Shown here piece by piece: positions 3,489-33,774 of a stretch of DNA of 36,921 bases (the first letter of the stretch is position 1; each line of letters starts with the position of its first letter). The DNA comes from Polaromonas sp. (GTDB lineage Bacteria > Pseudomonadota > Gammaproteobacteria > Burkholderiales > Burkholderiaceae_C). The DNA lies in assembly GCA_046714915.1 (NCBI GenBank), contig JBKJZS010000409.1, positions 1-36,921 on the forward strand, given 5' to 3'. The notes below the pieces were generated by a model. The model was not told the origin of the DNA. It saw only the letters and a program-made list of their open reading frames with translations, and searched no databases. Position numbers and translations under genes: made by a program.

Positions 3489-3540
3489 CATGCGGGCTTG
3501 ACCCGCAATCCATGGATGCCGGATCATGTCCGGCATGACA
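3489..3540 (+). repeat. family C REP-like paired-hairpin repeat (GCGGGCTTGACCCGCAATCCATG...CCGGATCANGTCCGGCATGACA)
   Basis: Two short hairpins; related copy at 30701-30792. Confidence 0.75.
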
Positions 3541-3571
3541 GCCATACCCCAATCAGGACACTTTACAACCC

Positions 3572-15963: not shown

Positions 15964-16947
15964 TTAAGGGGCTGTGAGCACCGGCGGCAGGCTGAGGTGG
16001 CGGCGGCTCTGGAAGTGTCGCGGCTGCCCGGTGAACGGGTCGTCAAAGGCGATGGTCTGGGCCAGCAGTTGGAGCGGGTAGCGGTAGTCGTCCCCGGGCG
16101 TCAGGTCGGGGAGGCTGTCGGACCTCGGAATCGTCGGCTGCAAATCGCTATCGACGCCCCCAGCCCGACAGGCTCCTGGCGCCGGGTAGACGCGGTCATT
16201 GACAATCGGCAGGCCCAGCGCGTTCATGTGCACGCGTAACTGGTGTTTCTGTCCGGTGACCGGGCTCAGGCTGTAGCGTGCCAGCGGCCCGCTGACTTCC
16301 AGCACCTCGATATGGGTTTCGCTGTTGGCCGGGCCGTCCTCTTCGCATTGCCGGAAAAAAGGCTGGCCTTCGACGATCCGGCTTTTGCAGACCCGTGGAA
16401 AGGTCACATCGGCACGCCAGGGCGCAATCGCCTCGTAGCGTTTGCTGACTTTGCGTTGCCTGAACAAATCCTGGTAGGCGCCCCGTTCCTGCGGTTGCAC
16501 TGAAAAAAGTACCAGCCCGGCGGTTTCGCGGTCAATCCGGTGGATCGGGCTGAGGCTGGCAATGCCCAAGCGATTTTTCAGTCGGACCAGCAGCGTTTCC
16601 TGGAGGTAGTGGCCTGATGGCGTCACCGGCAGAAAATGGGGCTTGTCGGCAACCACCAGGTGCGCGTCCTGAAACAGCAGGACCTCGTCAAAAGGAATGC
16701 GCGGCTCATGGTCCAGTGCGCGGTAGTAATAAACGCGCATATGGCCGCGGTAGGCACGCTCCGGCGTAACAGCCTGACCAAACTCGTCGATGACCTCGCC
16801 GCTGCCCATGCGTACCATCCACAGCGCACGTGGGATCGCCGGGAAGCGTTGCACCAGAAAATCGGTGATGGTCGGCCAGTCGCCGCCGGGCAGGCTGACG
16901 CAGCTGGGGCTCACGCCCTGGCGGGTGGGCAGTCCGCCGCAAATCAT
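15964..16947 (-). CDS. RluA-family pseudouridine synthase
   Basis: DKPHFLPV, HRIDRETAG catalytic motif, TGQKHQLRVHM. Confidence 0.9.
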   Translation of the reverse strand: MICGGLPTRQGVSPSCVSLPGGDWPTITDFLVQRFPAIPRALWMVRMGSGEVIDEFGQAVTPERAYRGHMRVYYYRALDHEPRIPFDEVLLFQDAHLVVADKPHFLPVTPSGHYLQETLLVRLKNRLGIASLSPIHRIDRETAGLVLFSVQPQERGAYQDLFRQRKVSKRYEAIAPWRADVTFPRVCKSRIVEGQPFFRQCEEDGPANSETHIEVLEVSGPLARYSLSPVTGQKHQLRVHMNALGLPIVNDRVYPAPGACRAGGVDSDLQPTIPRSDSLPDLTPGDDYRYPLQLLAQTIAFDDPFTGQPRHFQSRRHLSLPPVLTAP

Positions 16948-16951
16948 TGAG

Positions 16952-17041
16952 CCCCCGCGCTTGGCGCTTCGCGAGCCTCCGGCGGCACGCTGCCCCTTGC
17001 GCGACGAAGAGGAGCTGTCCGACCCTGGGGCGGCGCGGCGG
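16952..17041 (+). repeat. family A GC-rich element, copy A1 (long variant)
   Basis: CCCCCGCGCTT...CGGCGGCACGCTGCCCCTT...CCCTGGGGCGGCGCGGCGG; shares the internal CGGCGGCACGCTGCCCCTT block with copy A5. Confidence 0.7.
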
Positions 17042-17076
17042 TCGTACGGGCCTTGGCTTCTACAGCTTCAAACGGC

Positions 17077-17808
17077 TTACACACGGGTGAACACCAGGTC
17101 CCAGACGCCGTGCCCGAGTTTGATGCCGCGGTTTTCGAACTTGGTGAGCGGGCGGTAGTGCGGCTTGGGTGCATAGCCGCCACTGGCCGGGTCAGCGGTG
17201 TTTTTCAGCAAGGGCTCGGCGCTCAGGACTGCGAGAATCTGCTCGGCATAAGGTTGCCAGTCGGTCGCGCAATGCAGGTAGGCGCCGGGTTTGAGGCGGG
17301 TGACCAGTTGGGCGATCAGCGGCGGCTGGATCAGGCGACGTTTGTTGTGCTTCTTCTTGTGCCAGGGGTCGGGAAAGAAGATGTGTACACCGTCCAGGCT
17401 TTGCAGCGGCAGCATGTGCTCGAGGACTTCCACTGCGTCATGCTGCACGATGCGGATATTGCGCAAACCCTGTTCGTCGATGCGTTTGAGCAAGGCGCCG
17501 ACACCGGGGGTGTGGACTTCACAACCGAGAAAATTTTTCTCCCGGATCAGCGCGGCAATGTGCGCCGTGGCTTCTCCCATGCCAAAGCCAATTTCAAGAA
17601 TAAGCGGCGCAGATCGCCCGTAGGTGGCTGCCAGGTCAACCGCGGACGCTGTGTAGGGGAGCAGGAATTTCGGTCCCAGTTCGTCAACGGCTTTGGCCTG
17701 GCCGACCGTGGTGCGGCCGGTGCGGCGAACAAAGCTGCGGATGGTACGGGGGTGGGCGACATCCGGTGCTGGCGCGGCCGGGCGGCTGGGGGGAGTTGTT
17801 TCAGTCAC
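17077..17808 (-). CDS. trmB: tRNA (guanine-N7)-methyltransferase
   Basis: [38 protein letters not shown]; exact start uncertain (GTG 17808 chosen). Confidence 0.95.
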
Positions 17809-17858
17809 AGCCGTGATTTTAGGCGTTGGTGTCGCTGACCGAGCTCCTTCAGTGCGTT

Positions 17859-18821
17859 TCACAGCGGGTGCAGGGCTGCCCACCGCGCCACCGCCTGGCC
17901 TAGCCAGTCCCCGACGCTGCCCGCATCCACCTGCAGCCCCAGCAGCCGGCCTGCTTCGCCCAAGCTGGCGAGCGGCGTGCCGGGGTCCAGCGGCAGGGCG
18001 CCATTTTGTTTGGACAGTTTTTCACCGTTTTCGCCCAAGACCAAGGGTACATGCAGGTAGGCCGGGGTGGGCACGCCCAGCGCGCGCTGCAGCAAAATTT
18101 GCCGGGCGGTGTTGTCGGCAAGGTCTTCACCGCGCACCACATCGGTGATGCCTTGCGCGGCATCATCGACCACCACGGCCAGCTGATAGGCCCACAAACC
18201 ATCGGCGCGTTTGAGCACAAAGTCGCCCACCGCCTGCTCGACCTGCTGCTGCTGCACTCCGAGGCGGCGATCGTGCCAGCGAAGGCCTGAGGTTGCTATT
18301 AAATTAGTAGCTGAATACGCTGATTTGGTATGGGGTGCAGGCTGATTTGATGAAAATTTCCGGGTCAGAAAGCGCCACACGCGCGCGCGGCGGCCCTGCA
18401 GCCCCTGCCGGCACGTGCCGGGGTAGACCAGCTCCCCATGGCGCGGGCGGGCTTGCCCGCTGGCCGCCAGCGTCTGCGCAATGTCCTGCCGCGTGCAGGC
18501 GCAGGGGTAGGCGAGTTGCGCGGCGATCAGCGCCGCAAGTGCCGACTGGTAGTGGCCGCTGCGCTGTGACTGGTAGAGCGGCGGCGCGTCAGGCAGCAGA
18601 CCGCATGCGGCCAGCTGCTGCAGGATGATGGCGTCGGCTCCCTGCACGCAGCGCGGCGTGTCGATGTCTTCGATGCGCACCAGCCATTGCCCGCCGTGCG
18701 CTCGCGCATCGAGCCAGCTTGCCAGGGCGGCGACCAGCGAGCCCGCATGCAAAGGGCCGGTCGGGGAGGGAGCGAACCGGCCGATGTAGCGGACCGGCAG
18801 AACTTTAACTAAGGTCTGCAT
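17859..18821 (-). CDS. gluQ: glutamyl-Q tRNA(Asp) synthetase
   Basis: [15 protein letters not shown]-x-C zinc site, [20 protein letters not shown]; no anticodon-binding domain. Confidence 0.93.
18294..18356 (+). repeat. family B repeat inserted in frame in gluQ
   Basis: TGCTATTAAATTAGTAGCTG...GGGGTGCAGGCTGATTTGATGAAAA; AT-rich island in a GC-rich gene, encoding [21 protein letters not shown]. Confidence 0.8.
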
Positions 18822-18899
18822 GAATTTTTCGACGGGCCGCCCCTAGGAAAATGCGCCCCCTCGGGGGCAGCGCATTACACGAAGTGAAAAGCGTGGGGG
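18822..18899 (-). repeat. family A element, copy A2
   Basis: CCCCCACGCTTTTCACTTCG...CTGCCCCCGAGGGGGC..TTTTCCTAGGGGCGGCCCGTCG fills the whole spacer between the oxidoreductase stop and the gluQ ATG. Confidence 0.85.
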
Positions 18900-20024
18900 C
18901 TAGCAGATCTCGAGTGCCATTTCCAGCCCGGATACAAAACCGTCTTCCACCCGATGGCCGATGCACCAGTCACCGCAGCTGCCTATCCGCGATCGGGCGT
19001 CCCAAAGAAAGGGCTGGCCCAGGGCTTCGGTGGTTTGGGCATGGCGCCAGCGATGCACCACGGCATGCGGCGGTTGGGCCCGTATGCCGGTCACTTCGGT
19101 GAAGGCCTTGAGCAGTTTGGCTTTGACACGCTCGCCATCGTCTTCAAGGTGACGCTCCGACCACTCAGGGCTCGCCTGCACGGTCCAGCGCTCGATCGCG
19201 CTGCGTCCGGGCTTGGACGATTCACGGGCCAGCCAGGCAATGCGGTGGTGCGTGCTGCGGGCAGCGTTCCAGTGCGGACCCAGGTGCGGCAGCGTGGGCT
19301 GCAGCGCTTGCGGAAAGGCCAGCATCAGGGTCCAGCAGGGGGCAATGCTGACGCCGCTCAGGGCCGGCATCAAGGCTTTGCCTTGCTGCGAGCTCAGCAA
19401 CAAGGCGTGCGCCTGCGGCGAGGGCACGGCCAGCACCACGGCGTCAAAGCCGGAATAGACCTGGCTGCGGGCGCCCGGGCCTTCGGTCTGCAACTGCCAG
19501 CGCTCGGGGTGCAGCTTGTCGGCCTCTATCCGGACCACCTGGGTTTCCAGCGTCAGGGCGCCGTTTGCGCTCAGCGGCTGGGCCCACTGCTTGACCAGCG
19601 CATTCATGCCCGGTGTTGCGACCCAGTGGGCTTCCTTGGGCGGCAGTGATGACGCCACCACGCGGCCCGCTTCATCGAGAATACGCACGGTGTTGGCGCT
19701 CCACGGCCGAACCAGGCCGGCGGAGGTGGCGAGCGCTTGTTCGAAGCGCGCATCGCGCACGGTGAAGTACTGGGTGCCGTGGTCAAAGCCACCGAATTCG
19801 GTCTGGCGCGTCGCCATGCGGCCCCCGAGGCCGCGGCTTTTTTCAAACACCGTGACGCGGTGGCCGGCCTGCACCAGGGTACGCGCGCAGGCGATGCCGG
19901 CGATGCCCGCGCCGACCACGGCATAGTGCCTGGATGTCTGCCGCGATGATGAGTAGGCCAGTTTCAAGGTCGGGCTCAGGGCGTTTCTGGAGGATTTCTT
20001 GGCGGATTTTGTTTGTGCTGTCAT
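18900..20024 (-). CDS. renalase-like NAD(P)/FAD-dependent oxidoreductase
   Basis: VVGAGIAG, FEKSRGLGGRMATR, FDHGTQYFT, HRWRHA, CGDWC..VEDGFVSG. Confidence 0.9.
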   Translation of the reverse strand: MTAQTKSAKKSSRNALSPTLKLAYSSSRQTSRHYAVVGAGIAGIACARTLVQAGHRVTVFEKSRGLGGRMATRQTEFGGFDHGTQYFTVRDARFEQALATSAGLVRPWSANTVRILDEAGRVVASSLPPKEAHWVATPGMNALVKQWAQPLSANGALTLETQVVRIEADKLHPERWQLQTEGPGARSQVYSGFDAVVLAVPSPQAHALLLSSQQGKALMPALSGVSIAPCWTLMLAFPQALQPTLPHLGPHWNAARSTHHRIAWLARESSKPGRSAIERWTVQASPEWSERHLEDDGERVKAKLLKAFTEVTGIRAQPPHAVVHRWRHAQTTEALGQPFLWDARSRIGSCGDWCIGHRVEDGFVSGLEMALEIC

Positions 20025-20033
20025 GGCTGGACT

Positions 20034-21023
20034 CTACACGCTGTGGGGACGCTCCAGCAATGCCAGCTGCGTCTGCGGTCGCGCCAGCTGTTCCAGCCAC
20101 CAGTCCAGCGCGCGGCCGTTGTGCGGGGGGCGGGCCGGCTGCGCACCGCCGCTACCATTTTTCCGGGCCGGCGCAGTCGCGCCGGCGCTGTGACCCCGCC
20201 ACGCATAACTCATGGGCACGGCGCGGCGCGGCCTGTCCACGGCCTTGACCACCAGGCGGCCGTTGTCGATGTAAGGCCGGGCCAGGTGCTCGGGCAAGAA
20301 ACCGCAGCCCAGACCGCGCAGCTGCGCTTCCAGCTTGTACTGCATGGTCGGGACGGTCAGCACATCCTGGCCGCCGAGCAGGCCCATGCTGATGCCCGCG
20401 CCGCGCAGGGTGGTGTCGGCCACCGCCACCGCACGATAGGGCTGCAACTGCGCATCACTGATGCCGCCGCTGACGCCGGCCAGCGGATGGTGCGGTGCGA
20501 CGGCAAACACAAAGCGCACCTCACCCATCGGGCGGTTCAAAATTCCACTGGACTGGGTGACTTCCACGACGCAACCGATGGCCAAATCCGCCTGGCCCTG
20601 CAGCAGTGTTTCCCAGGTGCCAGACAGGGTCTCGGACCGGATGCGCAGCCGGGTCGGCGGACTCAAGGCATAAAAAGCCTCGCACAGTTCAAACAGCGTG
20701 GTGCTCGAAATCAGGCCGTCGGCCGTGATTGTCAGCTGCGACTCCCAACCGGTGGCGACCCGTTTGACACGTTGCGCCACCGCGTCGAGTTCGATCAGCA
20801 AGCGATTGCCCTCGCGCAGCAGTTCCTGCCCGGCTTCAGTCAGCCTGGCCTGGCGCGATGAGCGGTCAAACAGCAACACATCCAGCGCGTCTTCGATTTG
20901 CCGCACCCGGTAAGTCAGCGCGCTGGGCACCACGCCGAGCTCGCGCGCCGCAGCGGCCAGGCTGCCGGTTCGGTGCACCGTCGCTATCAGGCCCAGGGCT
21001 TCAGGCGTCAGGACGTTGCGCAA
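20034..21023 (-). CDS. LysR-family regulator (YhaJ-like)
   Basis: HTH GSLAAAARELGVVPSALTY, LFDRS; divergent from a pirin gene; GGAGG RBS with TTG start. Confidence 0.92.
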   Translation of the reverse strand: MRNVLTPEALGLIATVHRTGSLAAAARELGVVPSALTYRVRQIEDALDVLLFDRSSRQARLTEAGQELLREGNRLLIELDAVAQRVKRVATGWESQLTITADGLISSTTLFELCEAFYALSPPTRLRIRSETLSGTWETLLQGQADLAIGCVVEVTQSSGILNRPMGEVRFVFAVAPHHPLAGVSGGISDAQLQPYRAVAVADTTLRGAGISMGLLGGQDVLTVPTMQYKLEAQLRGLGCGFLPEHLARPYIDNGRLVVKAVDRPRRAVPMSYAWRGHSAGATAPARKNGSGGAQPARPPHNGRALDWWLEQLARPQTQLALLERPHSV

Positions 21024-21037
21024 AATTCCTCCGTTAG

Positions 21038-21052
21038 TTCAAATAATTTGAA
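21038..21052. promoter_or_regulatory. putative LysR operator palindrome TTCAAA-TAA-TTTGAA
   Basis: Perfect 6-bp dyad containing T-N11-A, in the divergent LysR/pirin spacer. Confidence 0.65.
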
Positions 21053-21141
21053 TGATGCCATCAATGGACAACAATTATCAAGACCGTCGGGTCCCTCTAC
21101 ATTGGATGCATCGATTCACCCGGTTTTGAAAGGACCGCCAC

Positions 21142-21843
21142 ATGCTGACATTGCGAACTTCCGCAGAACGGGGCTATGCCGACCACGGCTGGCTCAAGTC
21201 GTACCACTCTTTTTCGTTTGCCGGTTATTACGACCCGGCCCACATGGGTTTTGGAAATTTGCGCGTCATCAACGAAGACCGCATTGAGCCGGGCACCGGC
21301 TTTGGCACCCATGGCCACAAAGACATGGAGATCATCAGTTATGTGCTGAGCGGAGCGATCGGGCACAAGGACAACATCGGCAACGGCGCGTCCATTCCGC
21401 CGGGCGACGTGCAGCGCATGAGTGCCGGTACCGGCATTCAGCACAGCGAGTTCAACCATGCCAAGGATGCAACGACGCATTTTTTGCAAATCTGGATTGA
21501 ACCCAATGTCAGAGGCACCCCGCCCGGCTATGAGCAAAAGACCTTTGCCGACAGCGAAAAGCGTGGCGCGCTCAGGCTGGTGGCGTCTGGCGATGGCGCC
21601 CAGGGTTCGGTGACGGTGCACGCCGATGCAAAACTTTATGCCGGCTTGTTTGACGGCAGTGAGGCCGCCGAATTGCCGCTGGACCCCGGGCGCAAAACCT
21701 ATGTGCATCTGGTGCGCGGCGAACTGCATGTCAATGGCCAGCTGCTCCGGGCAGGCGATGCCGCCATGCTCGAAGCAGAAAGCCGGTTGCACCTTGGCCA
21801 GGGCAAGGCCGCCGAAGTGCTGGTGTTCGATCTGGCTGCTTAG
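21142..21843 (+). CDS. pirin family protein (YhhW/YhaK type)
   Basis: HGWLKSYHSFSF, LRVINED, HGHKDMEIISY, QRMSAGTGIQHSE. Confidence 0.93.
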   Translation: MLTLRTSAERGYADHGWLKSYHSFSFAGYYDPAHMGFGNLRVINEDRIEPGTGFGTHGHKDMEIISYVLSGAIGHKDNIGNGASIPPGDVQRMSAGTGIQHSEFNHAKDATTHFLQIWIEPNVRGTPPGYEQKTFADSEKRGALRLVASGDGAQGSVTVHADAKLYAGLFDGSEAAELPLDPGRKTYVHLVRGELHVNGQLLRAGDAAMLEAESRLHLGQGKAAEVLVFDLAA

Positions 21844-21962
21844 AACTTGCTCCTGGCCCAGCGGGAACCACACTGTCGCATGACGTGCCTATACTTACGT
21901 CCCCAATCTTTCGCTTAGCCTCATCTTTTTCGTTTTTCATAACTTTCAACAAAGGGCTCACC

Positions 21963-22373
21963 ATGCTTAACTCACTTCAAAACCCGTTTTCACTGCTCGG
22001 ACGCGTGCTGATTGCCTTGCTGTTTGTCCCGTCCGGTTTCGGAAAAATCGTCGGCTTTTCCGCTACGGCTGGCTACATCGCGTCGAAAGGCGTGCCGGTT
22101 CCAGAAGTGGCCACGGCGATTGCCATCGCGGTTGAAGTGGGCTTGGGTTCGTTGCTGCTGGTGGGCCTGCAGACACGCTGGGCGGCGCTCGGCATTGCGC
22201 TGTTTACCGTGGTCATCACCTTCATCTTTCACAACTTCTGGGCCATGCCTGCCGATCAGGTCATGATTGAGCAGCAAGCTTTCTTCAAAAACATCGCCGT
22301 CGTCGGCGGCCTGCTGACCATCGCCGCCTGGGGTGCCGGCGCGTGGAGTATGGACGGCAAGCTCAAAAGCTGA
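21963..22373 (+). CDS. DoxX family membrane protein
   Basis: GRVLIALLFVPSGFGKI...HNFW...FFKNIAVVGGLL; ATG 21963. Confidence 0.9.
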   Translation: MLNSLQNPFSLLGRVLIALLFVPSGFGKIVGFSATAGYIASKGVPVPEVATAIAIAVEVGLGSLLLVGLQTRWAALGIALFTVVITFIFHNFWAMPADQVMIEQQAFFKNIAVVGGLLTIAAWGAGAWSMDGKLKS

Positions 22374-22399
22374 CCCGTCCGGTCTGTTTCTTTTTCCCG

Positions 22400-22431
22400 C
22401 AGGCCAGCCTTCCAGCTGGCCTGTTTTTTTT
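22400..22431 (+). terminator. Rho-independent terminator
   Basis: CAGGCCAGC-cttcca-GCTGGCCTG hairpin followed by T8. Confidence 0.75.
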
Positions 22432-22448
22432 GAGTTTAGGATAGAACA

Positions 22449-23003
22449 ATGACAACAGTCGTGGTGCTTTATCACTCTGGGTACGGACACACCCAGCGCA
22501 TGGCGCAAGCGGTCGCTGAGGGCGCGGGCGCGGAGCTGCTGGCCATTGATGCCGATGGCAATTTGCCGGACGGCGGCTGGGGCGCGCTGAGCGCGGCCGA
22601 TGCCATCATCATGGGCTCGCCCACCTACATGGGTAATGTCAGCTGGCAGTTCAAGAAGTTTGCCGATGCATCCTCCAAAATCTGGTACACCCAGGCCTGG
22701 AAAGACAAGCTGTTTGCGGGCTTTACCCACAGCGCTGCCATCAATGGCGACAAGTCGTCGACCTTGAGCTATTTGTTTACGCTGGCGATGCAGCACGGCG
22801 GCCTCTGGATCAGCCAGGGCGTGTTGCCCAGCAGCAGCAAGGCGGCCCAGCGCAATGACCCGAACTACCTCGGCTCCTACAGCGGCGCCATCGCGCAAAC
22901 GCCGTCCGACGCCGGTGCCCATGAAATGTTGTCGGGCGATCTCGCTTCCGCCAAAATGTTTGGCAAACGCGTGGCTGAAATCAGCGGACGTTTTCGCGCT
23001 TGA
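22449..23003 (+). CDS. WrbA-like flavodoxin / NADPH-dependent FMN reductase
   Basis: YHSGYGHT, GSPTYMG, WKDK.AGF, NGDK motifs. Confidence 0.9.
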   Translation: MTTVVVLYHSGYGHTQRMAQAVAEGAGAELLAIDADGNLPDGGWGALSAADAIIMGSPTYMGNVSWQFKKFADASSKIWYTQAWKDKLFAGFTHSAAINGDKSSTLSYLFTLAMQHGGLWISQGVLPSSSKAAQRNDPNYLGSYSGAIAQTPSDAGAHEMLSGDLASAKMFGKRVAEISGRFRA

Positions 23004-23060
23004 TCGGCGTCCACTGATCCATTACTTTTTTACCGTTTGTCCGCTTTCAAGGAGTCGACC

Positions 23061-24349: not shown

Positions 24350-24410
24350 TGCCGGGCCTGCGAGAGAGCCCCGGTGCGCTGGGCTGCCATGCCGGCCTTA
24401 AGAGGGCGGC

Positions 24411-24721
24411 ATGCAGATTTTGACCTTGCTCCCCTGGCCCGACTGGGTCGCCATACTCTGGTTTTTCGGCTGCTGGATTGGCTATGCCTGGTTTGCGCGG
24501 CATTACGGCATCAAGCGTCCGTCCCTTTTGCAAATCACCAACGCACCGTGGGGCTGGCTGCTGAGACCTTCAATGATGGACTGCGCGCCTACTACCTGAG
24601 CTTTGCCATCATGGCCTGTTTTTTTTTCACCATTGCATTTGCACTGGCCACAGCGGTAGTGGTGCTGATTCTGTACAACCGGGAGTTCCGCTCCGAAGTC
24701 CTCGAGGTACTGCGAGGCTAG
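24411..24721 (+). pseudogene. DUF599-family membrane protein, internally deleted and frameshifted
   Basis: N-terminus (DWVAILWFFGCWIGYAWFA...RPSL) and C-terminus (AAETFNDGLRAYY...LYNREFRSEVL) join out of frame near 24543; the middle is missing. Confidence 0.75.
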
Positions 24722-24814
24722 CCCCCCACGCTTGCCGCTGCCTGTGCCTTCGGTGTTGCGCTGGCCCTTTTACCCGTTGGAGGCGTTGATTTTCCTTCGA
24801 GCGGCCCGTCGGAA
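24722..24814 (+). repeat. family A element, copy A3 (degenerate)
   Basis: Starts immediately after TAG: CCCCCCACGCTTG...TTTTCC..GCGGCCCGTCGGAA. Confidence 0.65.
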
Positions 24815-24836
24815 CAGTTTTTTTTCGTTGAAACCG

Positions 24837-26150
24837 TCAGGCAATATCGCGCGCCAGGCGCAACCCGCTGAATTGCCACTGCGCGTCCGGCGGAAAAAAG
24901 TTGCGGTAGCTGGCGCGGATATGGCTTTGCGGTGTGGCGCAGGAGCCGCCGCGCAGCACAAACTGGTTGCACATGAACTTGCCGTTGTATTCGCCGACCA
25001 GGCCCTCCCAGGGCTTGTAGCCGGGATAGGGGTTGTAGTTGGACTGGGTCCACTCCCACACATCACCAAACATCTGGGCCGGGCTGCCGTGGCTCTGTTG
25101 CCGCAGCGGGATCGGATGGTAAGCGGCGCTCTCCACAAAGTTTCCCAGCGGGGTTGGCACACTGCGCGCGGCGAGTTCCCATTCAAATTCGGTTGGCAAA
25201 CGCGCTTCGGCCCAACGGGCATAAGCGTCGGCTTCAAAATAACTGAGGTGGCATACCGGCGTGTTCGGGTCCACCTGCACCAGGCCCTGCAGGGTGAAGT
25301 TGCGGTAATCGCCAGATTCACCCTGCCAGTACAGCGGCATTGTTGGCCGGTTTGTTCGCACCCAGTCCCAACCCATGGCCAGCCACAGATCGGGCCGCTG
25401 GTAGCCAGCGTCCTCGATGAAGGCCGTCATCTCGCCATTGGTGACCAGCCGGCTACCGATTTCAAACGGAGCCAGACAGACCTGGTGGCGCGGCGTTTCA
25501 TTGTCAAAGCCAAACGAACCGTCTGTTGTCTGATCGAAACCATGCGCCAGCAGGCCGCCAGTGAACCCGATCCAGCGCAGGGTCTGCGGGCTGATTCCGG
25601 CCAGCGGCCAGTGTTGAGCATAAGCCGGCCGAGCCGGGTTGAAGGACAGTGCGTGTTTGATGTCTGTCAGCAGCAATTCCTGGTGCTGCTGTTCGTGGTG
25701 CAGGCCCAGCGTGATCAGTTGTATCAATTGAGCAGGTCTCGCATCACCGGCGCCAGTTTCAATTCTCTGGATGAGGTTGACCATACGCGCGTCTACTTGC
25801 GCGCGATAGTCAAGCACCTGCTGCAAGGTCGGGCGGCTGATCAGGCCCCGCTGTGGACGCGGATACTGGTCGCCCACGCCGTTGTAGTAGCTGTTGAACA
25901 AGGCCCGGAAGCTGGCATCGAAAGGCTTGAAGTCGGCCTCAAAACGTTCCAGCACAAACGTTTCAAAAAACCAGGTCAGATGGGCCAGATGCCATTTTGC
26001 CGGGCTGGCATCGGACATGGACTGAAGCTGGCAATCTTCCGCACTCAGAGGCTGGGCCAGCGCCTCGGTTCGTCCGCGTATCTGTTGAAAGCACTGCACC
26101 AATTGGAATCCCTGGGCGGCAGCATGAAGTGCAATGTATGGGGAAGGCAT
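24837..26150 (-). CDS. egtB: ergothioneine sulfoxide synthase
   Basis: SPAKWHLAH and HEQQHQE iron ligands, SYY + RPQR, FGE-like domain RLPTEFEWE, YRNFF. Confidence 0.95.
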   Translation of the reverse strand: MPSPYIALHAAAQGFQLVQCFQQIRGRTEALAQPLSAEDCQLQSMSDASPAKWHLAHLTWFFETFVLERFEADFKPFDASFRALFNSYYNGVGDQYPRPQRGLISRPTLQQVLDYRAQVDARMVNLIQRIETGAGDARPAQLIQLITLGLHHEQQHQELLLTDIKHALSFNPARPAYAQHWPLAGISPQTLRWIGFTGGLLAHGFDQTTDGSFGFDNETPRHQVCLAPFEIGSRLVTNGEMTAFIEDAGYQRPDLWLAMGWDWVRTNRPTMPLYWQGESGDYRNFTLQGLVQVDPNTPVCHLSYFEADAYARWAEARLPTEFEWELAARSVPTPLGNFVESAAYHPIPLRQQSHGSPAQMFGDVWEWTQSNYNPYPGYKPWEGLVGEYNGKFMCNQFVLRGGSCATPQSHIRASYRNFFPPDAQWQFSGLRLARDIA

Positions 26151-26249
26151 AAAAGATCAATCCATGCAAATGGCTTCGGAGGTTCTGATGCGTCAACAAG
26201 CGGGTCGGTTGATGCAGGGTGTTAAAAAGCTTCCCACGACTTGCCGAAC

Positions 26250-27004: not shown

Positions 27005-27057
27005 ATCGTGTCATTGTAGGGAGCGGGAGCGCATCCTCGCCGTCCTAGAATGAAGCC

Positions 27058-30000
27058 ATGTTTGTCCATTTACGTATTCACACCGAATTTTCAGTGGTCG
27101 ACGGCACCACCCGCATTGATGAAATCGTTCACGCCGCCGCCGCCGACCGTCAGCCTGCGCTGGCCATTACCGATCTGGGGAATCTGTTTGGCACGGTCAA
27201 GTTTTACAAGGAAACCCGCGGCGCCGGTGTCAAACCACTGATCGGCGCTGACGTGTGGGTGCAGGTCCCGGGCAAAGACGCCGGCGCGGCACCGGCGCGC
27301 CTGCTGCTGCTGGTGCAAAACCGCCAGGGCTACCGGAACCTGTCGGAGTTGCTGACGCGGGCCTGGACCAAAGGCGTGGTGCGCGACCAGGCCGTCATCA
27401 GGCTGGAATGGCTGCAGGAACTCAATGAAGGCCTGATTGCCTTGTCGGGCGCGCAGGGCGGCGCCGTGGGGCAGGCGCTGGTGCAGGGCGATGGCCCGCG
27501 CGCGCTGGAATGCGCGCTGCGTCTGGCGGGGCTTTTCCCGCACCGTTTTTACCTGGAGCTGCAGCGCGCCCAAAGGGTTGACGACGAGCAGCACGTGGCA
27601 GCGGCGGTCCAGCTGGCGGCCCGGCTCAAACTCCCGGTGGTCGCCACCCACCCGGTGCAGTTTTTGGGCTATGAGGACTATGAGGCCCATGAGGCCCGTG
27701 TCTGCATTGCCGAGGGCGAAATCCTCGGCAATGCGCGGCGCGTGCGCAAGTTCACGCGCGAGCAGTATTTCAAGTCGTCAGCGCAGATGGCAAAGCTGTT
27801 TGCCGACCTCCCTTCGGCCCTGGCCAACACGCTGGAGATCGCCAAACGCTGCAACCTGGTGCTTGAGCTGGGCAAGCCCATGCTGCCTGACTACCCGACT
27901 CCGGAAGTCAATGGTGTGCGCCTGCCGATCGACGCCTACTTCCGCCATGCCTCCCTCGAAGGCCTGGAAGTGCGCCTGGCCCACCTCTACCCCGATGTAG
28001 CCGTGCGCGACCAGAAAAGGCCGGTCTACGTGGAGCGGCTGGAGTTCGAAATCAACACGATTTTGAAAATGGGTTTTCCGGGTTACTTCCTGATCGTCGG
28101 CGACTTCATCAACTGGGCCAAAAACAATGGCTGCCCGGTGGGGCCGGGCCGGGGCTCGGGCGCCGGCTCGCTGGTGGCGTATTCGCTGAAGATCACCGAC
28201 CTTGACCCGCTGCAGTACAACCTGCTGTTCGAGCGTTTTCTGAATCCGGAGCGGGTGTCCATGCCCGACTTCGATATTGATTTTTGTCAGACCAACCGCG
28301 ACCGCGTGATTGATTACGTGAAGGACAAATACGGCAAAGAGGCGGTCAGCCAGATCGTTACCTTCGGCACCATGGCGGCGCGTGCGGCGATCCGCGATGT
28401 GGGCCGCGTGCTCGATTTTGCCTACGGCTTTTGCGATGGCATTTCCAAGTTGATTCCGAACAAGCCGGGCCAGGCCGTGACCCTGCAACTGCCGCCGCCC
28501 GACCGCGACAAAAACGACAAGCTGGTGTATGCGCTGGAGGCCGAGCCGATTCTGGCCGAGCGCGAGCGCAAGGAAGAAGACGTCCGCACCCTGCTGGAGC
28601 TGGCGCGCAAGCTCGAAGGCCTGACACGCAACGTTGGCATGCACGCTGGCGGTGTGCTCATTGCGCCGGGAAAGCTGACCGATTTTTGCCCGCTGTATGC
28701 CCAGCCCGGCAGCGGCTCGGCGGTGAGTCAGTTCGACAAAGACGATGTGGAAGCCATTGGCCTCGTCAAGTTCGACTTTTTGGGTCTGGCAACCCTGACC
28801 ATTCTGGAGCTGGCCAAAGACTTTATCGTCCAGCGCCATCCGGCGCGTAAGGACTTCCGCTACGAGGATTTGCCGCTGGACGACGCGCGCGTGTACGCGC
28901 TGTTTGCCAAAGGCCAGACGGAAGCGGTGTTCCAGTTTGAAAGCCGGGGTATGCAGGGCATGCTGCGCGACGCCAAGCCGACTCGTCTCGAAGACCTGAT
29001 TGCGATGAATGCGCTGTACCGGCCCGGCCCGATGGACCTGATTCCGACCTACATCGCGCGCAAGTCAGGCCGTGAAGACGTGGTCTACCCCGACCCGCGC
29101 GTCGAGGCGATTTTGTCCGAGACCTACGGCGTCATGATTTACCAGGAGCAGGTGATGCAGATGGCGCAGATCCTGGGCGGTTATTCGCTCGGTGGCGCTG
29201 ATTTGCTGCGCCGCGCCATGGGTAAAAAGAAGGCCGAGGAAATGGCGGAGCATCGCCAGATTTTCAGCACCGGAGCTGCCGAAAAAGGCATCACCAGGGA
29301 AAACGCCGACAAGGTCTTTGACGACATGGAGAAGTTCGCAGGGTACGGCTTCAACAAGTCGCACTCTGCCGCGTATGCCTTGCTGGCCTACCACACCGCC
29401 TGGATCAAGGTCCATTACACGGCTGAATTTTTCTGCGCCAACATGACGGTGGAAATGGGCGACACCGACAAGCTCAAGGTGTTGTTCGGCGACGCCATGA
29501 AGATGGGCCTCACCTTCGAATCGCCCGACGTGAACCGCGGCCACTACCGCTTCGAGCCGATCAGCAACAGCAGCATTCGCTACGGCCTGGGCGCGGTCAA
29601 GGGCACCGGCCAGCAGGCGATTGCCGCCATCGTGGCCGCGCGCGAGGCGGGCGGGCCATTCACTTCGCTGTATGACTTCTGCGTTCGGGTGGACAAGTCC
29701 AGACTCAACAAACGCACGGTAGAGGCGCTGATCAAGGCCGGCGCCTTTGACAACCTGCAACTCAATCGCGCGTCGCTGCTGGCCTCGGTGGACCGCGCTT
29801 TTGAATTTGCCGCCGCCACCGAGGCCAATGCCAACCAGGGCGGGCTGTTCGACATGGCCGACTCGCACGCGGCCAGCACGCAGGAACCGGCCTTGGTTGA
29901 AGCCGTGCCGTTTGGCGTGAAGGCGCGCCTGACCCAGGAGAAAACAGCGATCGGCTTTTATTTGTCGGGCCACCTGTTTGACGAGGTCGAGCGCGAAGTA

Positions 30001-30567
30001 CGCCAGTTCGCCAAGCGAAAAATCGACGAACTGATCGATTCGCGCGAGCCGCAGTTGCTGGCCGCCATCGTGACCGATTTCCGCGTTATCAACGGCCAGC
30101 GTGGCAAGCTCGCGCTGTTCAAGCTGGACGACAAATCGGCTGTGATCGAAGCCACCGCCGACGAAGCGCTGATCAACGCCAACCGCAATTTGCTCAAAGA
30201 CGATGAGCTGGTGATTGTGCAGGGGGTGTTGCAAGCGGACCGTTTCACCGGTGGCTCGCGGCTTAAGGTTACGCAGGTCTGGGACCTGGATGCGGCGCGC
30301 TGCCGCTTCGGCAAGTACCTCCGGGTGGTGGTCAATGGCACGGCGCCGGATGTGCAACGCCTCGTCAGGGATTTCCCCCCGCACCGCGAAATGTCGGAGC
30401 AGGGGGAGGTCAGTCGCGGCCTGCCGGTGCGCCTGAGTCTTCAACGCGGCAGTGTCAGCGCGGAGCTGCAGCTGGGTGAGGCCGCGAAGTTTTTCCCGTC
30501 CGACGCGGCGCTGGCCAGCTGGATGGCCCAGGCCGACCAGGGGATGGCACACATTGTTTATGAATGA
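27058..30567 (+). CDS. dnaE: DNA polymerase III alpha subunit
   Basis: PHP domain, GPGRGSGAGS, SMPDFDIDF, YGFNKSH, OB fold; no intein-sized insert. Confidence 0.98.
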   Translation: MFVHLRIHTEFSVVDGTTRIDEIVHAAAADRQPALAITDLGNLFGTVKFYKETRGAGVKPLIGADVWVQVPGKDAGAAPARLLLLVQNRQGYRNLSELLTRAWTKGVVRDQAVIRLEWLQELNEGLIALSGAQGGAVGQALVQGDGPRALECALRLAGLFPHRFYLELQRAQRVDDEQHVAAAVQLAARLKLPVVATHPVQFLGYEDYEAHEARVCIAEGEILGNARRVRKFTREQYFKSSAQMAKLFADLPSALANTLEIAKRCNLVLELGKPMLPDYPTPEVNGVRLPIDAYFRHASLEGLEVRLAHLYPDVAVRDQKRPVYVERLEFEINTILKMGFPGYFLIVGDFINWAKNNGCPVGPGRGSGAGSLVAYSLKITDLDPLQYNLLFERFLNPERVSMPDFDIDFCQTNRDRVIDYVKDKYGKEAVSQIVTFGTMAARAAIRDVGRVLDFAYGFCDGISKLIPNKPGQAVTLQLPPPDRDKNDKLVYALEAEPILAERERKEEDVRTLLELARKLEGLTRNVGMHAGGVLIAPGKLTDFCPLYAQPGSGSAVSQFDKDDVEAIGLVKFDFLGLATLTILELAKDFIVQRHPARKDFRYEDLPLDDARVYALFAKGQTEAVFQFESRGMQGMLRDAKPTRLEDLIAMNALYRPGPMDLIPTYIARKSGREDVVYPDPRVEAILSETYGVMIYQEQVMQMAQILGGYSLGGADLLRRAMGKKKAEEMAEHRQIFSTGAAEKGITRENADKVFDDMEKFAGYGFNKSHSAAYALLAYHTAWIKVHYTAEFFCANMTVEMGDTDKLKVLFGDAMKMGLTFESPDVNRGHYRFEPISNSSIRYGLGAVKGTGQQAIAAIVAAREAGGPFTSLYDFCVRVDKSRLNKRTVEALIKAGAFDNLQLNRASLLASVDRAFEFAAATEANANQGGLFDMADSHAASTQEPALVEAVPFGVKARLTQEKTAIGFYLSGHLFDEVEREVRQFAKRKIDELIDSREPQLLAAIVTDFRVINGQRGKLALFKLDDKSAVIEATADEALINANRNLLKDDELVIVQGVLQADRFTGGSRLKVTQVWDLDAARCRFGKYLRVVVNGTAPDVQRLVRDFPPHREMSEQGEVSRGLPVRLSLQRGSVSAELQLGEAAKFFPSDAALASWMAQADQGMAHIVYE

Positions 30568-30621
30568 AATCGGGCTATAGCCCTTGTTTCATATGCGTGA
30601 GTAGCTATTAAATATGTAGCA
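30563..30621 (-). repeat. family B repeat overlapping the dnaE stop
   Basis: Minus strand TGCTACATATTTAATAGCTACTCACGC...GGGCTATAGCCCGATTTCATT. Confidence 0.75.
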
Positions 30622-30700
30622 ATCGAAATTTGTTTTGAAGTCGAAAATGGCATCTTCGACGTTTGCCATTGCAGGCCTGACCAATACTCTTCGTTTAACT

Positions 30701-30792
30701 GTCATTGCGGGCTCGACCCGCAATCCATGCTGGCGCGTCATGGATGCTCCCGGATCGAAGTCCGGGGCAGGCTTATCAGGTCCGGGATGACA
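30701..30792 (+). repeat. family C paired-hairpin repeat
   Basis: GTCATTGCGGGCTCGACCCGCAATCCATG...CCCGGATCGAAGTCCGGG...TCCGGGATGACA; matches 3489-3540. Confidence 0.8.
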
Positions 30793-30842
30793 GCCATCGT
30801 CCGGGATCATAGATGGGGGGTGACGGCTTTGCCAAACGGTGT

Positions 30843-30892
30843 TGGCTCCAGCCCGCGAAGGTACAGCGCAACAAGCTATCATATTGATAGCA
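30843..30892 (-). repeat. family B repeat
   Basis: Minus strand TGCTATCAATATGATAGCTTGTTGCGC...GGGCTGGAGCCA. Confidence 0.7.
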
Positions 30893-30910
30893 ATTTATCG
30901 TCCGGACGCA

Positions 30911-31774
30911 CTAATCTTTGGGCCGGAACTCCAGAATCATAGGGCTGGGCACCCGGCCATCGACATCGCGTGGCATGGTCTCGGTGCGGATGATGGCCTT
31001 GATCACTGCCTCATCCCAGGCCTTGTTGCCGCTGGCCTTGATCAGTCGCTGGCTGATGATGCTGCCGTCCAGCGCGGTACGCACCTCAACCTCGGCGGTC
31101 GGGTTGCCGGCGATGTCTTCGGTGAACACGATGTTGGGTTTGACTTTGGCGCGCACCTTGCCGCCATAACTGGCCGAGGGGCCGCTTGATTTTTGCGTCG
31201 TGCCTTTGGAATCTGCCGCGCCGGTGGCGCCGGCTTGGCCGAGCATGCGTTCCAGGTTTTTCTTGCGCTGGTCGGCGAGCTTCTGGGCTTCCTGCTTGTT
31301 GGTCTCTGCCTTTTTGTCCTCCGCTTTTTTTGCGTCCAGCTTTTTCGTGTCCTCGGCGGCCTTGCGTTTGGCCAGCTCAAGTTCCCTGGCTTTCAAGGCA
31401 TTCTCTTTTTCCTTTTGCTGAGACTTGAGTTTGTCGTCGGCTTCTTTTTTCTGTTGCAACTTGCGCCGCTTTTCCCGCTCCAGCGCAATATCGACGTCGG
31501 GTGTGGGTGGTGGCGCCTTGACCTGAGGCGGCTCGGGTGCCGGCTGGGGTGGTGGCGGCGGCGGGGCCTCCACCAGCCTGGGCGCTGCCTCCTGCGGCAG
31601 ACTGGACCACAACTCGGCTTCAAAGGAAATATCGGGGTTGCTGCGCTTCCAGTTCACGCCCCAGGTGAGCGCCGCGCCCAGCAGGAGATGGGCCAGCAAT
31701 GCCAGGCTGAAGGCCCGCATCGCACCGGGGTCGCGGTGGGGTGCAAATTCAAGGCGGTCGGCGGCGCTGGGCAT
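30911..31774 (-). CDS. tolA: Tol-Pal protein TolA
   Basis: TM with conserved His, Pro-rich then Lys/Glu/Ala-rich linker, C-terminal SGNKAWDEAV domain; follows tolQR. Confidence 0.92.
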   Translation of the reverse strand: MPSAADRLEFAPHRDPGAMRAFSLALLAHLLLGAALTWGVNWKRSNPDISFEAELWSSLPQEAAPRLVEAPPPPPPQPAPEPPQVKAPPPTPDVDIALEREKRRKLQQKKEADDKLKSQQKEKENALKARELELAKRKAAEDTKKLDAKKAEDKKAETNKQEAQKLADQRKKNLERMLGQAGATGAADSKGTTQKSSGPSASYGGKVRAKVKPNIVFTEDIAGNPTAEVEVRTALDGSIISQRLIKASGNKAWDEAVIKAIIRTETMPRDVDGRVPSPMILEFRPKD

Positions 31775-31808
31775 GGGGTGGGTATGACTGTGCGCGGAAA
31801 AACCGGCT

Positions 31809-32240
31809 TCAGTTGCCAGTCTGCACGGACAGTCCGACACGGGCCACGCCTGCTTTTTGCAGGGCGTCCATGACCTTGACCACGGTTTCGTATTTGACCG
31901 ATTTGTCAGCGCTGATCACCACGGGCGTGAGCTGCTCACCCGTCGGCACCGCCGGTTGCAAGCGCTTGACGGCCGACCCAACGTCGCCGAGCCTGGTCGT
32001 TGCCGCCTCGCCGGCGGTCTTGATTTGTATGACCTCATCTTTGCTGATCAATATCTGGATCGGCTTGGCTGGTTGACCGGTTGCCTTGCCGACCTTGGGC
32101 AGGGCGATCATGCTGGGGGTGATCAGCGGCGCCGTTACCATGAAGATGATGAGGAGCACCAGCATCACGTCAATGAAAGGCACCATGTTGATCTCGCTGA
32201 TGTTGCGACGGCCTCGGCCGCGAGAATTGGTGGCTGGCAT
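31809..32240 (-). CDS. tolR: TolR
   Basis: SEINMVPFIDVMLVLLIIFMVTAP; ADKSVKYETVVKVMD; GGAG RBS before ATG 32240. Confidence 0.95.
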   Translation of the reverse strand: MPATNSRGRGRRNISEINMVPFIDVMLVLLIIFMVTAPLITPSMIALPKVGKATGQPAKPIQILISKDEVIQIKTAGEAATTRLGDVGSAVKRLQPAVPTGEQLTPVVISADKSVKYETVVKVMDALQKAGVARVGLSVQTGN

Positions 32241-32254
32241 ATCAGGTCTCCGTA

Positions 32255-32417
32255 GGGCCGCCCCAAGGCGACCTGGGCCCCCTCGGGGGGCCGGGCCAAA
32301 GCGTGATGCCTCGGAACGTGCGTGGCGCAGGCCCGGCATTGGGCTCGGTCCGCCGTACCGCAGCCCGCACGGCCACTGCGCGAGCCCGGTGCAGTGACGA
32401 AGCCGAAAACGTGGAGG
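32255..32417 (-). repeat. family A element, copy A4, expanded by internal hairpins
   Basis: Plus-strand ends GGGCCGCCCCAAGG...CCCCCTCGGGGGGC and ACGAAGCCGAAAACGTGGAGG match A2/A6; interior has CCGGGCC..GGCCCGG and GGGCTCG..CGAGCCC stems. Confidence 0.7.
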
Positions 32418-32434
32418 TGATCATTTTTCCTGGT

Positions 32435-33127
32435 CTAGTGACCTGAGGGCGAGGTAGCGCCCAGATTGCGTTGCAGGATGTTGGAAAACTCTTCGATGAA
32501 AGTCTCCAGCTTGTTGGCCACGCGATCAATGTCATGGGCAAAGCGGTTGTAAGCCACCACGGCAGGAATGGCGGCAAACAGGCCAATGGCGGTGGCGACC
32601 AGCGCTTCGGCAATGCCGGGCGCCACGGCTGACAGCGTGACCTGCTCCAGGGCAGCCAGTCCGGTAAAGGCATGCATGATGCCCCAGACGGTGCCGAACA
32701 GGCCGACATAAGGCGACACTGAACCGACCGTGGCGAGGAAGGACAAATTTGCCTCGACGGCGTCGACTTCGCGCTGGTAGCTTGCGCGCATGGCGCGGCG
32801 GGCGCCGTCAAGGAGGGTGCTGGGGTCGGCCATGCGGCGCTCGCGCAGTTTCTGAAATTCGCGCATGCCGCTGGCAAAAATACGTTCCATCGGCCCGGTG
32901 TGCCGGGCGTTCTGGGTGGCTGCGGTGTAGAGGTCGTTCAGGCTCGTGCCAGACCAGAACTCGCGGTCAAACTCCTCATTGAGCGACTGCACGCGTTTGA
33001 GCGAAATGATCTTGCGGAAGATGGCCGACCAGCTCGCAATCGACACCCCGACCAGCAACGCCACCACGCCCTGAACCACCCAGCTGGCGTTGAGAATGAG
33101 AGTGACAATGGATAAATCCTGATTCAT
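32435..33127 (-). CDS. tolQ: TolQ
   Basis: LATVGSVSPYVGLFGTVWGIM, VAPGIAEALVATAIGLFAAIPAV. Confidence 0.97.
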   Translation of the reverse strand: MNQDLSIVTLILNASWVVQGVVALLVGVSIASWSAIFRKIISLKRVQSLNEEFDREFWSGTSLNDLYTAATQNARHTGPMERIFASGMREFQKLRERRMADPSTLLDGARRAMRASYQREVDAVEANLSFLATVGSVSPYVGLFGTVWGIMHAFTGLAALEQVTLSAVAPGIAEALVATAIGLFAAIPAVVAYNRFAHDIDRVANKLETFIEEFSNILQRNLGATSPSGH

Positions 33128-33774
33128 GTTGTGGTTTCCAGACTGTCAAGGATGTGAGCGGGAATTCTGGCAGGTTTGAGGCTGGCCGCGTCCACCCAGC
33201 CTATGCGTATCGTGCCCTCGCAGAGTAATGTCGCCTCCACGCTATTCGCTGCGCGTGCCATCGGCGGCACGCTGCCCCTTTCACCCAATGAAGGGGCTAA
33301 TTTTCCCAGGGGCGGCCCGGCGGAAAATTGCCCGTCGCCCAAGTTTCTGCCGGGCAGGTCATTTCGCTCTGATTTTAATAGCGCCTGCTGCCTGATTATC
33401 AAGGACGCCCGACCTTTTTCGACCAGACTTGCAGTCACAGTCAGTTCGTCATCGAGGCGGGCAGGGCGGTGATAGCGAACGCGGGTTTCTGTCACGACAA
33501 AGATGCCGCCGGTGCTTTCACGCAGGCGCTGCTGCTCAATGCCCAGGGATCTGAGCCACTCGGTGCGCGAGCGTTCAAAAAATTTCAGGTAGTTGGCGTA
33601 GAACACAATGCCGCCTGCATCGGTGTCTTCCCAGTACACCCGTATTGGCCAACTAAAGGCGCTTTTTAGTGGGGGAGGAAGGCAATTTTCCGACGGGCCG
33701 CCCCTAGGAAAATTAGCCCCCTCGGGGGGCAGCGCAGTACGCGAAGCGACAAGCGTGGGGGTCACCTTATCCAA
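33124..33774 (-). CDS. ybgC: Tol-Pal-associated acyl-CoA thioesterase with repeat-derived N-terminal extension and internal insert
   Basis: RVYWEDTDAGGIVFYANYLKFFERSRTEWL, PARLDD, RIP; TTG 33774 has a GGAGG RBS, and no start codon lies between the repeat and the conserved core. Confidence 0.9.
   Translation of the reverse strand: MDKVTPTLVASRTALPPEGANFPRGGPSENCLPPPLKSAFSWPIRVYWEDTDAGGIVFYANYLKFFERSRTEWLRSLGIEQQRLRESTGGIFVVTETRVRYHRPARLDDELTVTASLVEKGRASLIIRQQALLKSERNDLPGRNLGDGQFSAGPPLGKLAPSLGERGSVPPMARAANSVEATLLCEGTIRIGWVDAASLKPARIPAHILDSLETTT
33234..33332 (+). repeat. family A element, copy A5, in frame inside ybgC
   Basis: CCTCCACGCT...CGGCGGCACGCTGCCCCTT...GGGGCTAATTTTCCCAGGGGCGGCCCGGCGGAAAATTGCC. 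Confidence 0.85.
33681..33761 (-). repeat. family A element, copy A6, encoding the YbgC N-terminus
   Basis: CCCCCACGCTTGTCGCTTCG...CTGCCCCCCGAGGGGGCTAATTTTCCTAGGGGCGGCCCGTCGGAAAATTGCC; closely similar to A2. Confidence 0.85.

What the first reader, a model, noticed from the sequence alone, without database searches (positions are those of the whole stretch)
16944..33774. Family A element occupies stop-start junctions and carries bridging reading frames: candidate translation-relay mobile repeat
Seen: six copies (16952, 18822, 24722, 32255, 33234, 33681) of a CCCCCACGCTT...CTGCCCCCCGAGGGGG...GGGGCGGCCC element. Two begin on the base after a TAG. At trmB-rluA, an ORF starts at a GTG overlapping the trmB end (17084) and stops in an ATGA overlap with rluA (16944). 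At tolQ-tolR, a 60-aa ORF (32424-32242) starts 10 nt after the tolQ stop and ends 1 nt before the tolR ATG, with GGAG at its end. At aminotransferase-ybgC it is fused as the N-terminus. Inference: a non-autonomous element that survives inside important operons by passing ribosomes across itself, avoiding polarity, and may tune downstream expression through strong hairpins. Best candidate here for an undescribed system.
Basis: partly seen in the sequence, partly recalled or inferred. Interest (0 to 1): 0.8.

Follow-up and report, generated by a model that had tools for sequence, protein, structure and literature searches.

The report
Known repeat bridged by relay mini-ORFs
The repeat is the already described betaproteobacterial element BRE, and copies that sit between same-direction genes carry a short reading frame from one gene's stop to the next gene's start far more often than chance, which likely lets ribosomes cross the insert, as proposed for mycobacterial MIRU repeats.

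Summary
Observation confirmed; identity known. "Family A" is BRE (Hot et al. 2011, PMC3110155): 334 hits in 253 loci in this genome. The bridging frames are real. A separate ORF spans the element from upstream stop to downstream start in 31 of 63 sense junctions, against 9.5±2.0 after frame-shifting the element. This repeats in other genera (19 of 31 vs 5.7). An ORF starts at the stop in 99 of 132 co-directional but 3 of 24 convergent gaps. The relay belongs mostly to the host junction, not the element: at trmB-rluA 10 of 30 genomes have a relay ORF, only 2 with BRE, and an unrelated REP is bridged too (7 of 26 vs 2.5). Only 2 of the 6 window copies are true relays. The logic is published for MIRUs and attC sites, and this scan saw it in other genomes with other repeats; I found no paper linking it to BRE. 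Translation is untested and no mobilising enzyme was found. Unexplained: one end of BRE sits just after same-strand stop codons even in convergent gaps.

The parts
16952..17042 (+). BRE copy, antisense to the trmB-rluA mRNA
   Evidence: profile hit
16944..17084 (-). 46-codon relay ORF: GTG at -8 from the trmB stop, TGA overlapping the rluA ATG at -4
   Evidence: no Pfam hit
17077..17808 (-). trmB, upstream gene of the relay (start approximate)
   Evidence: TIGR00091 over cut-off
15964..16947 (-). RluA-family pseudouridine synthase, downstream gene; 19 of 30 genomes have a direct -4 GTGA overlap here
18822..18899 (-). BRE copy filling the whole 78-nt gap between a flavin oxidoreductase TAG and the gluQ ATG; no bridge
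24722..24816 (+). BRE copy directly after the TAG of a DUF599 remnant, in a convergent gap facing egtB; nothing to relay to
32242..32424 (-). 60-codon relay ORF between tolQ and tolR, with GGAG near its end
32388..32417 (-). degenerate 5' half of a split BRE (limits approximate)
32246..32292 (-). 3' half of the split BRE; its stem arm carries the GGAG in front of tolR
32435..33127 (-). tolQ
   Evidence: TIGR02796 over cut-off
31809..32240 (-). tolR
   Evidence: TIGR02801, below cut-off; start codon conserved in relatives
33233..33329 (+). BRE copy in frame inside the C-terminal part of ybgC; a matching insert is in L024
33684..33762 (-). BRE copy in frame just after the TTG start of ybgC (N-terminal extension)
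33124..33774 (-). ybgC thioesterase with two in-frame BRE inserts
   Evidence: TIGR02799; alignment

Best explanation
The repeat is BRE, a ~80-nt three-hairpin element, and its copies between same-direction genes are crossed by short stop-to-start reading frames, most likely because host selection keeps only inserts that ribosomes can translate through and so stay coupled to the next gene. Shown: family identity, copy number and position; excess of bridging frames and of -4 overlaps; dependence on a downstream gene; the same bridging at BRE-free spacers. Inferred: BRE inserts imprecisely near stop/start junctions. A ribosome ending the upstream gene restarts at an ATG/GTG in the element's variable A/T-rich 5' linker or at the old start codon, reads a throw-away peptide of about 27-135 residues, stops on or near the next start and restarts. 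This would unfold the hairpins, avoid Rho polarity and deliver ribosomes. In-frame fusion to the N-terminus (ybgC) is the other tolerated outcome. BRE suits this filter because four of its six frames are stop-poor and its tandem unit is usually 84 nt. The mobilising enzyme is unknown.
For: Frame-shift null, 97 of 119 co-directional loci testable: bridge in 31 of 63 sense (null 9.5±2.0) and 7 of 34 antisense (1.2±0.9), 0 of 500 simulations reaching either. Strict test on independently called starts: exact -4 overlap in 19 of 75 vs 4.4±1.5. Other genera: 21 of 39 vs 6.7±1.5. Three congeners: 20 of 54 vs 3.5±1.4. ORF start at the stop that crosses the element: 99 of 132 co-directional vs 3 of 24 convergent. 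tolQ-tolR: 6 of 6 BRE spacers of 105-222 nt are bridged; 39 of 51 loci have 2-36 nt spacers. trmB-rluA: 19 of 30 direct -4 overlaps, 10 relay ORFs of 7-46 codons all ending at -4, only 2 with BRE. CGTC-type REP: 7 of 26 vs 2.5±0.9. Bridged genes have stronger Shine-Dalgarno matches (31 vs 44 genes, p=0.011). Published spacing rules for coupling fit (passages of PMC12548453).
Against: No translation or expression data. 25 of 63 sense and 11 of 34 antisense junctions have no path, including the window copy at 18822. N-terminal fusions are fewer than the null for sense copies (4 vs 10.6). Gene calls come from my own hexamer caller, with some wrong flanks: the intragenic 33233 copy was scored as a C-terminal fusion. 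Congeners share sites (27 of 58 orthologous sites also filled in this genome), so counts across kin are not independent. A pure host filter does not explain the stop-codon adjacency in convergent gaps or the GGAG arm variant.
Confidence: 0.68

Rival explanations
1. BRE is itself adapted as a translation-relay cassette: it targets stop codons and brings its own start codon, open frames, 3n unit length and sometimes a Shine-Dalgarno sequence, so relay is an element trait.
For: The CCCCC end lies -3..+15 nt after a same-strand stop in 132 of 146 sense co-directional and 24 of 28 convergent loci. Stops occur in only 37 and 27 of 263 copies in two sense frames, against about 25% in shuffles. 54 of 69 tandem periods are multiples of 3. 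A GGAG stem arm occurs in 7 of 115 sense co-directional loci and 0 of 184 others, 9-13 nt before the next start in 6 of 7. Filled/empty pairs suggest the A/T-rich linker comes with the element (21 pairs).
Against: Start codons are nearly absent in convergent gaps (3 of 24), so they are filtered by context, not fixed. Bridges use all three sense frames (20, 9 and 2). Relay ORFs occur without BRE. Without the 84-nt class only 17 of 32 periods are 3n. The GGAG class is small and was noticed after the fact.
Confidence: 0.17
2. The ORFs matter only as ribosome cover that prevents Rho termination or RNase attack on the structured insert; downstream genes start independently from their own Shine-Dalgarno sequence, without true re-initiation.
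For: An ORF crossing the element (52 of 64) is more common than a full bridge (31 of 63). Bridged genes carry good Shine-Dalgarno matches. At tolQ-tolR five of six bridges end 9-12 nt before the ATG.
Against: The excess of exact -4 stop/start overlaps (19 of 75 vs 4.4), and 10 of 10 relay ORFs ending at -4 on rluA, are not needed for cover alone.
Confidence: 0.1
3. Bridges are a mechanical by-product: insertion duplicates an NTGA junction (as proposed for MIRUs) and GC-rich DNA rarely has stops, with no selection involved.
For: Two loci have 8-nt duplications that include ATGA (contigs C211, C533). One filled/empty pair has ATGA on both sides where the empty site has a single overlap (L241).
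Against: No general duplication: mean longest shared word 3.85 vs 3.74±0.06 in 193 loci. The frame-shift null keeps composition and both junction ends yet loses most bridges. Bridges persist through large length changes.
Confidence: 0.05

Closest known systems
BRE, Beta-proteobacterial repeat element (Hot et al. 2011, PMC3110155; seen: abstract, parts 2-4 of 6 of the text, parts 1, 3 and 4 of 4 of supplement 1; figures not seen)
   Same: Three sequence blocks are identical in order and letter to the listed Bordetella copies (38 of 38 nt, compared by eye), with spacers of 11 and 18 nt against 11 and 19. Same size, tandem arrays, intergenic, overlapping and in-gene positions, and the same Comamonadaceae genera.
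   Different: Far more copies here (334 hits vs at most 29 strong ones reported). The paper's main text has no occurrence of 'coupling', 'stop codon', 'hairpin' or 'transposase', so relay ORFs, stop-codon adjacency and the structure are additions.
MIRU, mycobacterial interspersed repetitive units (Supply et al. 1997; original not seen, read as passages of PMC12548453 and PMC3184786)
   Same: Small repeat at gene junctions whose ORF couples to the next gene with -4 spacing, proposed to limit harm to the host gene.
   Different: Unrelated host phylum. BRE occurs in both orientations and often in frame inside genes, uses several frames, and shows no general 4-nt target duplication.
Short ORFs in integron attC sites and attI1 ORF-11 (passages of review PMC8876359)
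   Same: A short throw-away ORF across a structured element relieves a stem-loop barrier by termination-reinitiation; tested experimentally for ORF-11.
   Different: No integrase or cassette array is linked to BRE here; BRE is scattered over housekeeping operons.
REP/REPIN elements with a RAYT transposase (definitions partly recalled)
   Same: GC-rich hairpin repeats, hundreds of chromosomal copies, tandem arrays, often just after stop codons; the genome has one RAYT (NF047646).
   Different: No GTAG/CGTC tag in the consensus and arrays are head-to-tail only (0 mixed-strand loci). No BRE lies on the RAYT contig or in 30 Y1-transposase loci.
Rickettsia palindromic elements (recalled; Ogata et al. 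2000 cited in PMC3184786)
   Same: In-frame palindromic inserts in conserved proteins; 54 of 253 loci are intragenic, two of them in ybgC.
   Different: Different phylum-level host and size; the relay ORFs are a separate outcome.

Membership tests
BRE | Sequence similarity to the published ~90-bp repeat | tested here: met
   Blocks GGGCCGCCCC, GCCCCCTCGGGGGGCAGC and AGCGTGGGGG match List S1 in order and spacing; compared by eye, no score computed
BRE | Full length 75-91 bp plus partial copies | tested here: met
   78-position model; 286 full, 48 partial of 334 hits; tandem unit mostly 84 nt
BRE | Head-to-tail tandem copies at some loci | tested here: met
   59 of 254 clusters hold 2-5 copies, none of mixed strand
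BRE | Betaproteobacterial (Comamonadaceae, Alcaligenaceae) chromosomes; intergenic, overlapping and in-gene positions | tested here: met
   Named genera; 59 of 61 congeners; 1 plasmid record of 72,556, no phage; positions
BRE | Transcribed (BprJ RNA in Bordetella) | not testable with these tools
   no RNA data for this organism were available
MIRU | Internal ORF coupled to flanking genes, often at -4 | tested here: met
   (works like a MIRU)
MIRU | Tetranucleotide direct repeats at filled sites | tested here: not met
   no excess of shared words over shuffled pairs in 193 loci; 2 isolated 8-nt cases
MIRU | Mycobacterial host and MIRU sequence | tested here: not met
   element found in Betaproteobacteria; MIRU sequences were not aligned
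REP/REPIN | Cognate RAYT flanked by the repeat | tested here: not met
   single RAYT beside gltB with no BRE on its contig or in 30 Y1 loci
REP/REPIN | GTAG or CGTC tag next to a palindrome (recalled) | tested here: not met
   absent from the consensus
MITE | Terminal inverted repeats and target-site duplication | tested here: not met
   consensus ends are not complementary; no general duplication
Rfam RNA families | Match to a covariance model | tested here: not met
   0 at gathering score in the window; 0 at E<=1 for 33600-33850

The most novel reading that the evidence does not exclude
BRE is a single-stranded-DNA-mobilised, one-ended element that is aimed at the bases just after stop codons and has evolved portable translation signals (start-codon linker, stop-poor frames, 84-nt unit, a Shine-Dalgarno stem arm). 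Its invariant C-GNA-G loop on the strand opposite the CCCCC end would be the recognition hairpin of a still unknown enzyme. That would be a mobile element whose target choice follows translation termination.
Probability: 0.17. Interest if true: 0.72.

Novelty: new variant of a known kind. Interest (0 to 1): 0.42.

Why it matters
BRE is named in only two papers found and has no assigned function, yet it reaches hundreds of copies in Comamonadaceae-type genomes. These data explain how it persists inside operons such as tol-pal and trmB-rluA and give a genome-scale, replicated test of an idea proposed for MIRUs. The junctions are natural experiments on termination-reinitiation: the same gene pair exists as a -4 overlap, a 7-codon relay and a 46-codon relay. 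For annotation, these repeat-derived peptides and terminal extensions should not be read as protein families. The open question worth a specialist's time is what moves BRE and why one end hugs stop codons.

Tried and rejected
Cognate enzyme: PF01797 is in 60 of 61 congeners, mostly as a single RAYT beside gltB, while strict BRE counts run from 0 to 181. No BRE lies next to it, so it is not supported as the partner, though action in trans is not excluded. Other transposase or reverse-transcriptase families were not searched. Plasmids and phages gave no BRE-enzyme link. General target-site duplication: not found. Landing-site mirror, a lead from an earlier finding: the variable 3' stem arm does not match the empty site in the 21 pairs printed; these relatives are only 68-88% identical, so the test is coarse. 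Unusually stable RNA fold: no. Rfam: none. Sequencing runs: no RNA holder listed; laid contigs gave no clean joint that skips a copy. The REP pattern failed (2 copies), so the 572 control gaps there (37 bridged vs 29.6±3.5) include REP-bearing gaps; it was redone (160 copies). The nested-insert search failed and was redone. Paper searches for a BRE relay found none. A search for GNA triloops with all six terms found no paper, so loop stability is recalled knowledge. Searches gave nothing used. Supply 1997 and the BRE figures were not seen.
Full report
Observation. The six copies and both relay ORFs are at the stated coordinates. The repeat is genome-wide: a second-round profile finds 334 hits (E<=0.01; 0 in the reversed genome) of which 286 are full length. 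They form 253 loci: 77 co-directional sense, 42 co-directional antisense, 54 inside genes (26 sense, 28 antisense), 14 convergent, 7 divergent and 59 at contig edges. 'Sense' means that the strand beginning with the CCCCC run is the mRNA strand. Gene calls are from a hexamer model I trained with the repeats masked; stops are reliable, starts less so.

Identity. The first paper search returned Hot et al. 2011, which describes BRE in Bordetella and Comamonadaceae. Its sequence list shares three blocks letter for letter with the window copy at 33684-33762, in the same order and near-identical spacing (compared by eye). The strict pattern is in 59 of 61 congeners at 0-181 copies and in 18 of 201 genomes across the order, mostly as one or two matches. 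The host is therefore inferred to be Comamonadaceae-type. Only two papers name BRE, and the original has no mention of coupling or stop codons.

Is bridging more than chance? For 97 of 119 co-directional loci (22 dropped for open ends, long gaps or no usable anchor) I asked whether a start within -8..+12 nt of the upstream stop opens a frame that spans the element and stops within -8..+12 nt of a start in the downstream gene's frame. The null adds or removes 1-2 nt inside the element. With ATG/GTG, separate bridges occur in 31 of 63 sense junctions (null 9.5±2.0) and 7 of 34 antisense ones (1.2±0.9). Any continuous path occurs in 38 of 63 (null 20.8) and 23 of 34 (11.8); swaps, shuffles and reversal also gave lower counts, and 3-nt deletions left them unchanged. 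Using only starts called blind to the bridge, 19 of 75 stops overlap the start exactly at -4 (null 4.4±1.5, maximum 10 in 300). The result repeats in 39 testable junctions from the 80 GTDB loci fetched (21 vs 6.7±1.5) and in 54 from 87 loci of three congeners (20 vs 3.5±1.4). Against: 36 of 97 junctions have no path, sense N-terminal fusions are below the null (4 vs 10.6), and kin share sites (27 of 58).

Host or element? Three results point to the host. First, among sense copies next to a stop, an ORF that crosses the element starts there in 99 of 132 co-directional but only 3 of 24 convergent gaps (three sets pooled, not independent). Second, at trmB-rluA in the 30 best-matching of 56 genomes, 19 have a direct -4 overlap, one a +7 start, and 10 a relay ORF of 7-46 codons ending at -4; only two of the ten hold BRE. 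One of the ten (L046) is from unpublished genome G046; without it the count is 9 of 29. G046 also enters the tallies. At tolQ-tolR (51 of 53 loci scored) 39 have 2-36 nt spacers, all 6 BRE spacers are bridged, 2 of 6 other long spacers pass the rule, and three more have an ATG 1-3 nt after the stop by eye. Third, the genome's unrelated CGTC-type REP is bridged in 7 of 26 junctions (null 2.5±0.9), while ordinary 70-300 nt gaps show little excess (37 of 572 vs 29.6±3.5). Empty orthologues of bridged sites more often had a start near the stop (4 of 8) than those of unbridged sites (1 of 9), a small sample. At the aminotransferase-ybgC junction the TTG at -8 is present in 21 of 23 loci, and BRE is inserted in frame behind it in either orientation: a tolerated fusion, not a relay.

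Element anatomy. Covariation over 237 copies supports a first hairpin (positions 16-22, 14-25, 13-26) and a variable third stem (52-75, 55-73); a C-rich/G-rich middle hairpin appears in single-copy folds. The first loop reads C-T-N-C-G in 197 of 237 copies, which is C-GNA-G on the other strand. From recalled knowledge, that is an extra-stable DNA triloop and hints at a single-stranded DNA stage; this is inference, and one search found no paper with all my terms. Folding is barely better than shuffles (RNA mean z -0.43 and -0.03, DNA -0.51 and -0.31; 80 copies). Four of six frames are stop-poor (10-19% of 263 copies vs 25-32% shuffled) and 54 of 69 tandem periods are 3n, but only 17 of 32 outside the 84-nt class (a stricter count gave 37 of 39). 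A GGAG stem arm is confined to sense co-directional loci (7 of 115 vs 0 of 184), including tolQ-tolR. No general target duplication was found; 21 filled/empty pairs show a short A/T-rich linker and net gains of mostly 69-108 nt.

Unexplained. The CCCCC end lies -3..+15 nt after a same-strand stop in 132 of 146 sense co-directional and 24 of 28 convergent loci, while the other end is 2-239 nt from the opposite stop. Coupling cannot explain this in convergent gaps, and genes show no orientation bias. An A/T-rich target preference, selection on 3' untranslated RNA, or targeting linked to termination are the candidates. No mobilising enzyme was found: the single RAYT has no BRE beside it.

Comparison and verdict. 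It is a member of BRE. It works like a MIRU (passage in PMC12548453) and like the short ORFs of attC sites (passages in PMC8876359) but fails MIRU, REP and MITE membership tests. Earlier notes of this scan named BRE for in-frame inserts and described relay ORFs for other repeats in other genomes; none shown joined the two. Novelty: new variant of a known kind. Interest 0.42.

Noticed in passing
window 32293-32387; L005, L011; genome contigs C483, C578, C485: Second palindromic elements are nested inside BRE near the same point (after the first hairpin). Two carry the CTGACCCC-type inverted repeats also seen flanking the RAYT gene.
   Followed up: partly
L321 (G000 C611 5207-5911); L188-L211: A single-copy RAYT (NF047646) sits upstream of gltB in most congener loci examined, with its own short inverted repeats: likely a domesticated transposase of unknown role.
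   Followed up: partly
window 24411-24721: DUF599 gene broken into two short frames with most of its middle missing.
   Followed up: partly
window 3504-3545 and 30756-30797: Copies of a second, CGTC-type REP family (160 matches in the genome), also bridged above chance.
   Followed up: partly
window 14809-15828 and 24837-26150: egtD and egtB (ergothioneine synthesis) lie about 9 kb apart rather than side by side.
   Followed up: no
window 5391-5981: Mrr-type restriction endonuclease domain gene (PF04471).
   Followed up: no
L225 vs contig C560; L243 vs contig C551: BRE decays by internal deletion and leaves its first 10-20 nt as an in-frame scar in proteins.
   Followed up: no
L275 vs contig C242; L280 vs contig C466; ybgC start in L001-L021: The same junction holds BRE in opposite orientations in different species, pointing to repeated insertion at hotspots.
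   Followed up: partly
L300, L313, L317: Other long palindromic inserts at tolQ-tolR in other genera also open an ORF right after the tolQ stop.
   Followed up: partly
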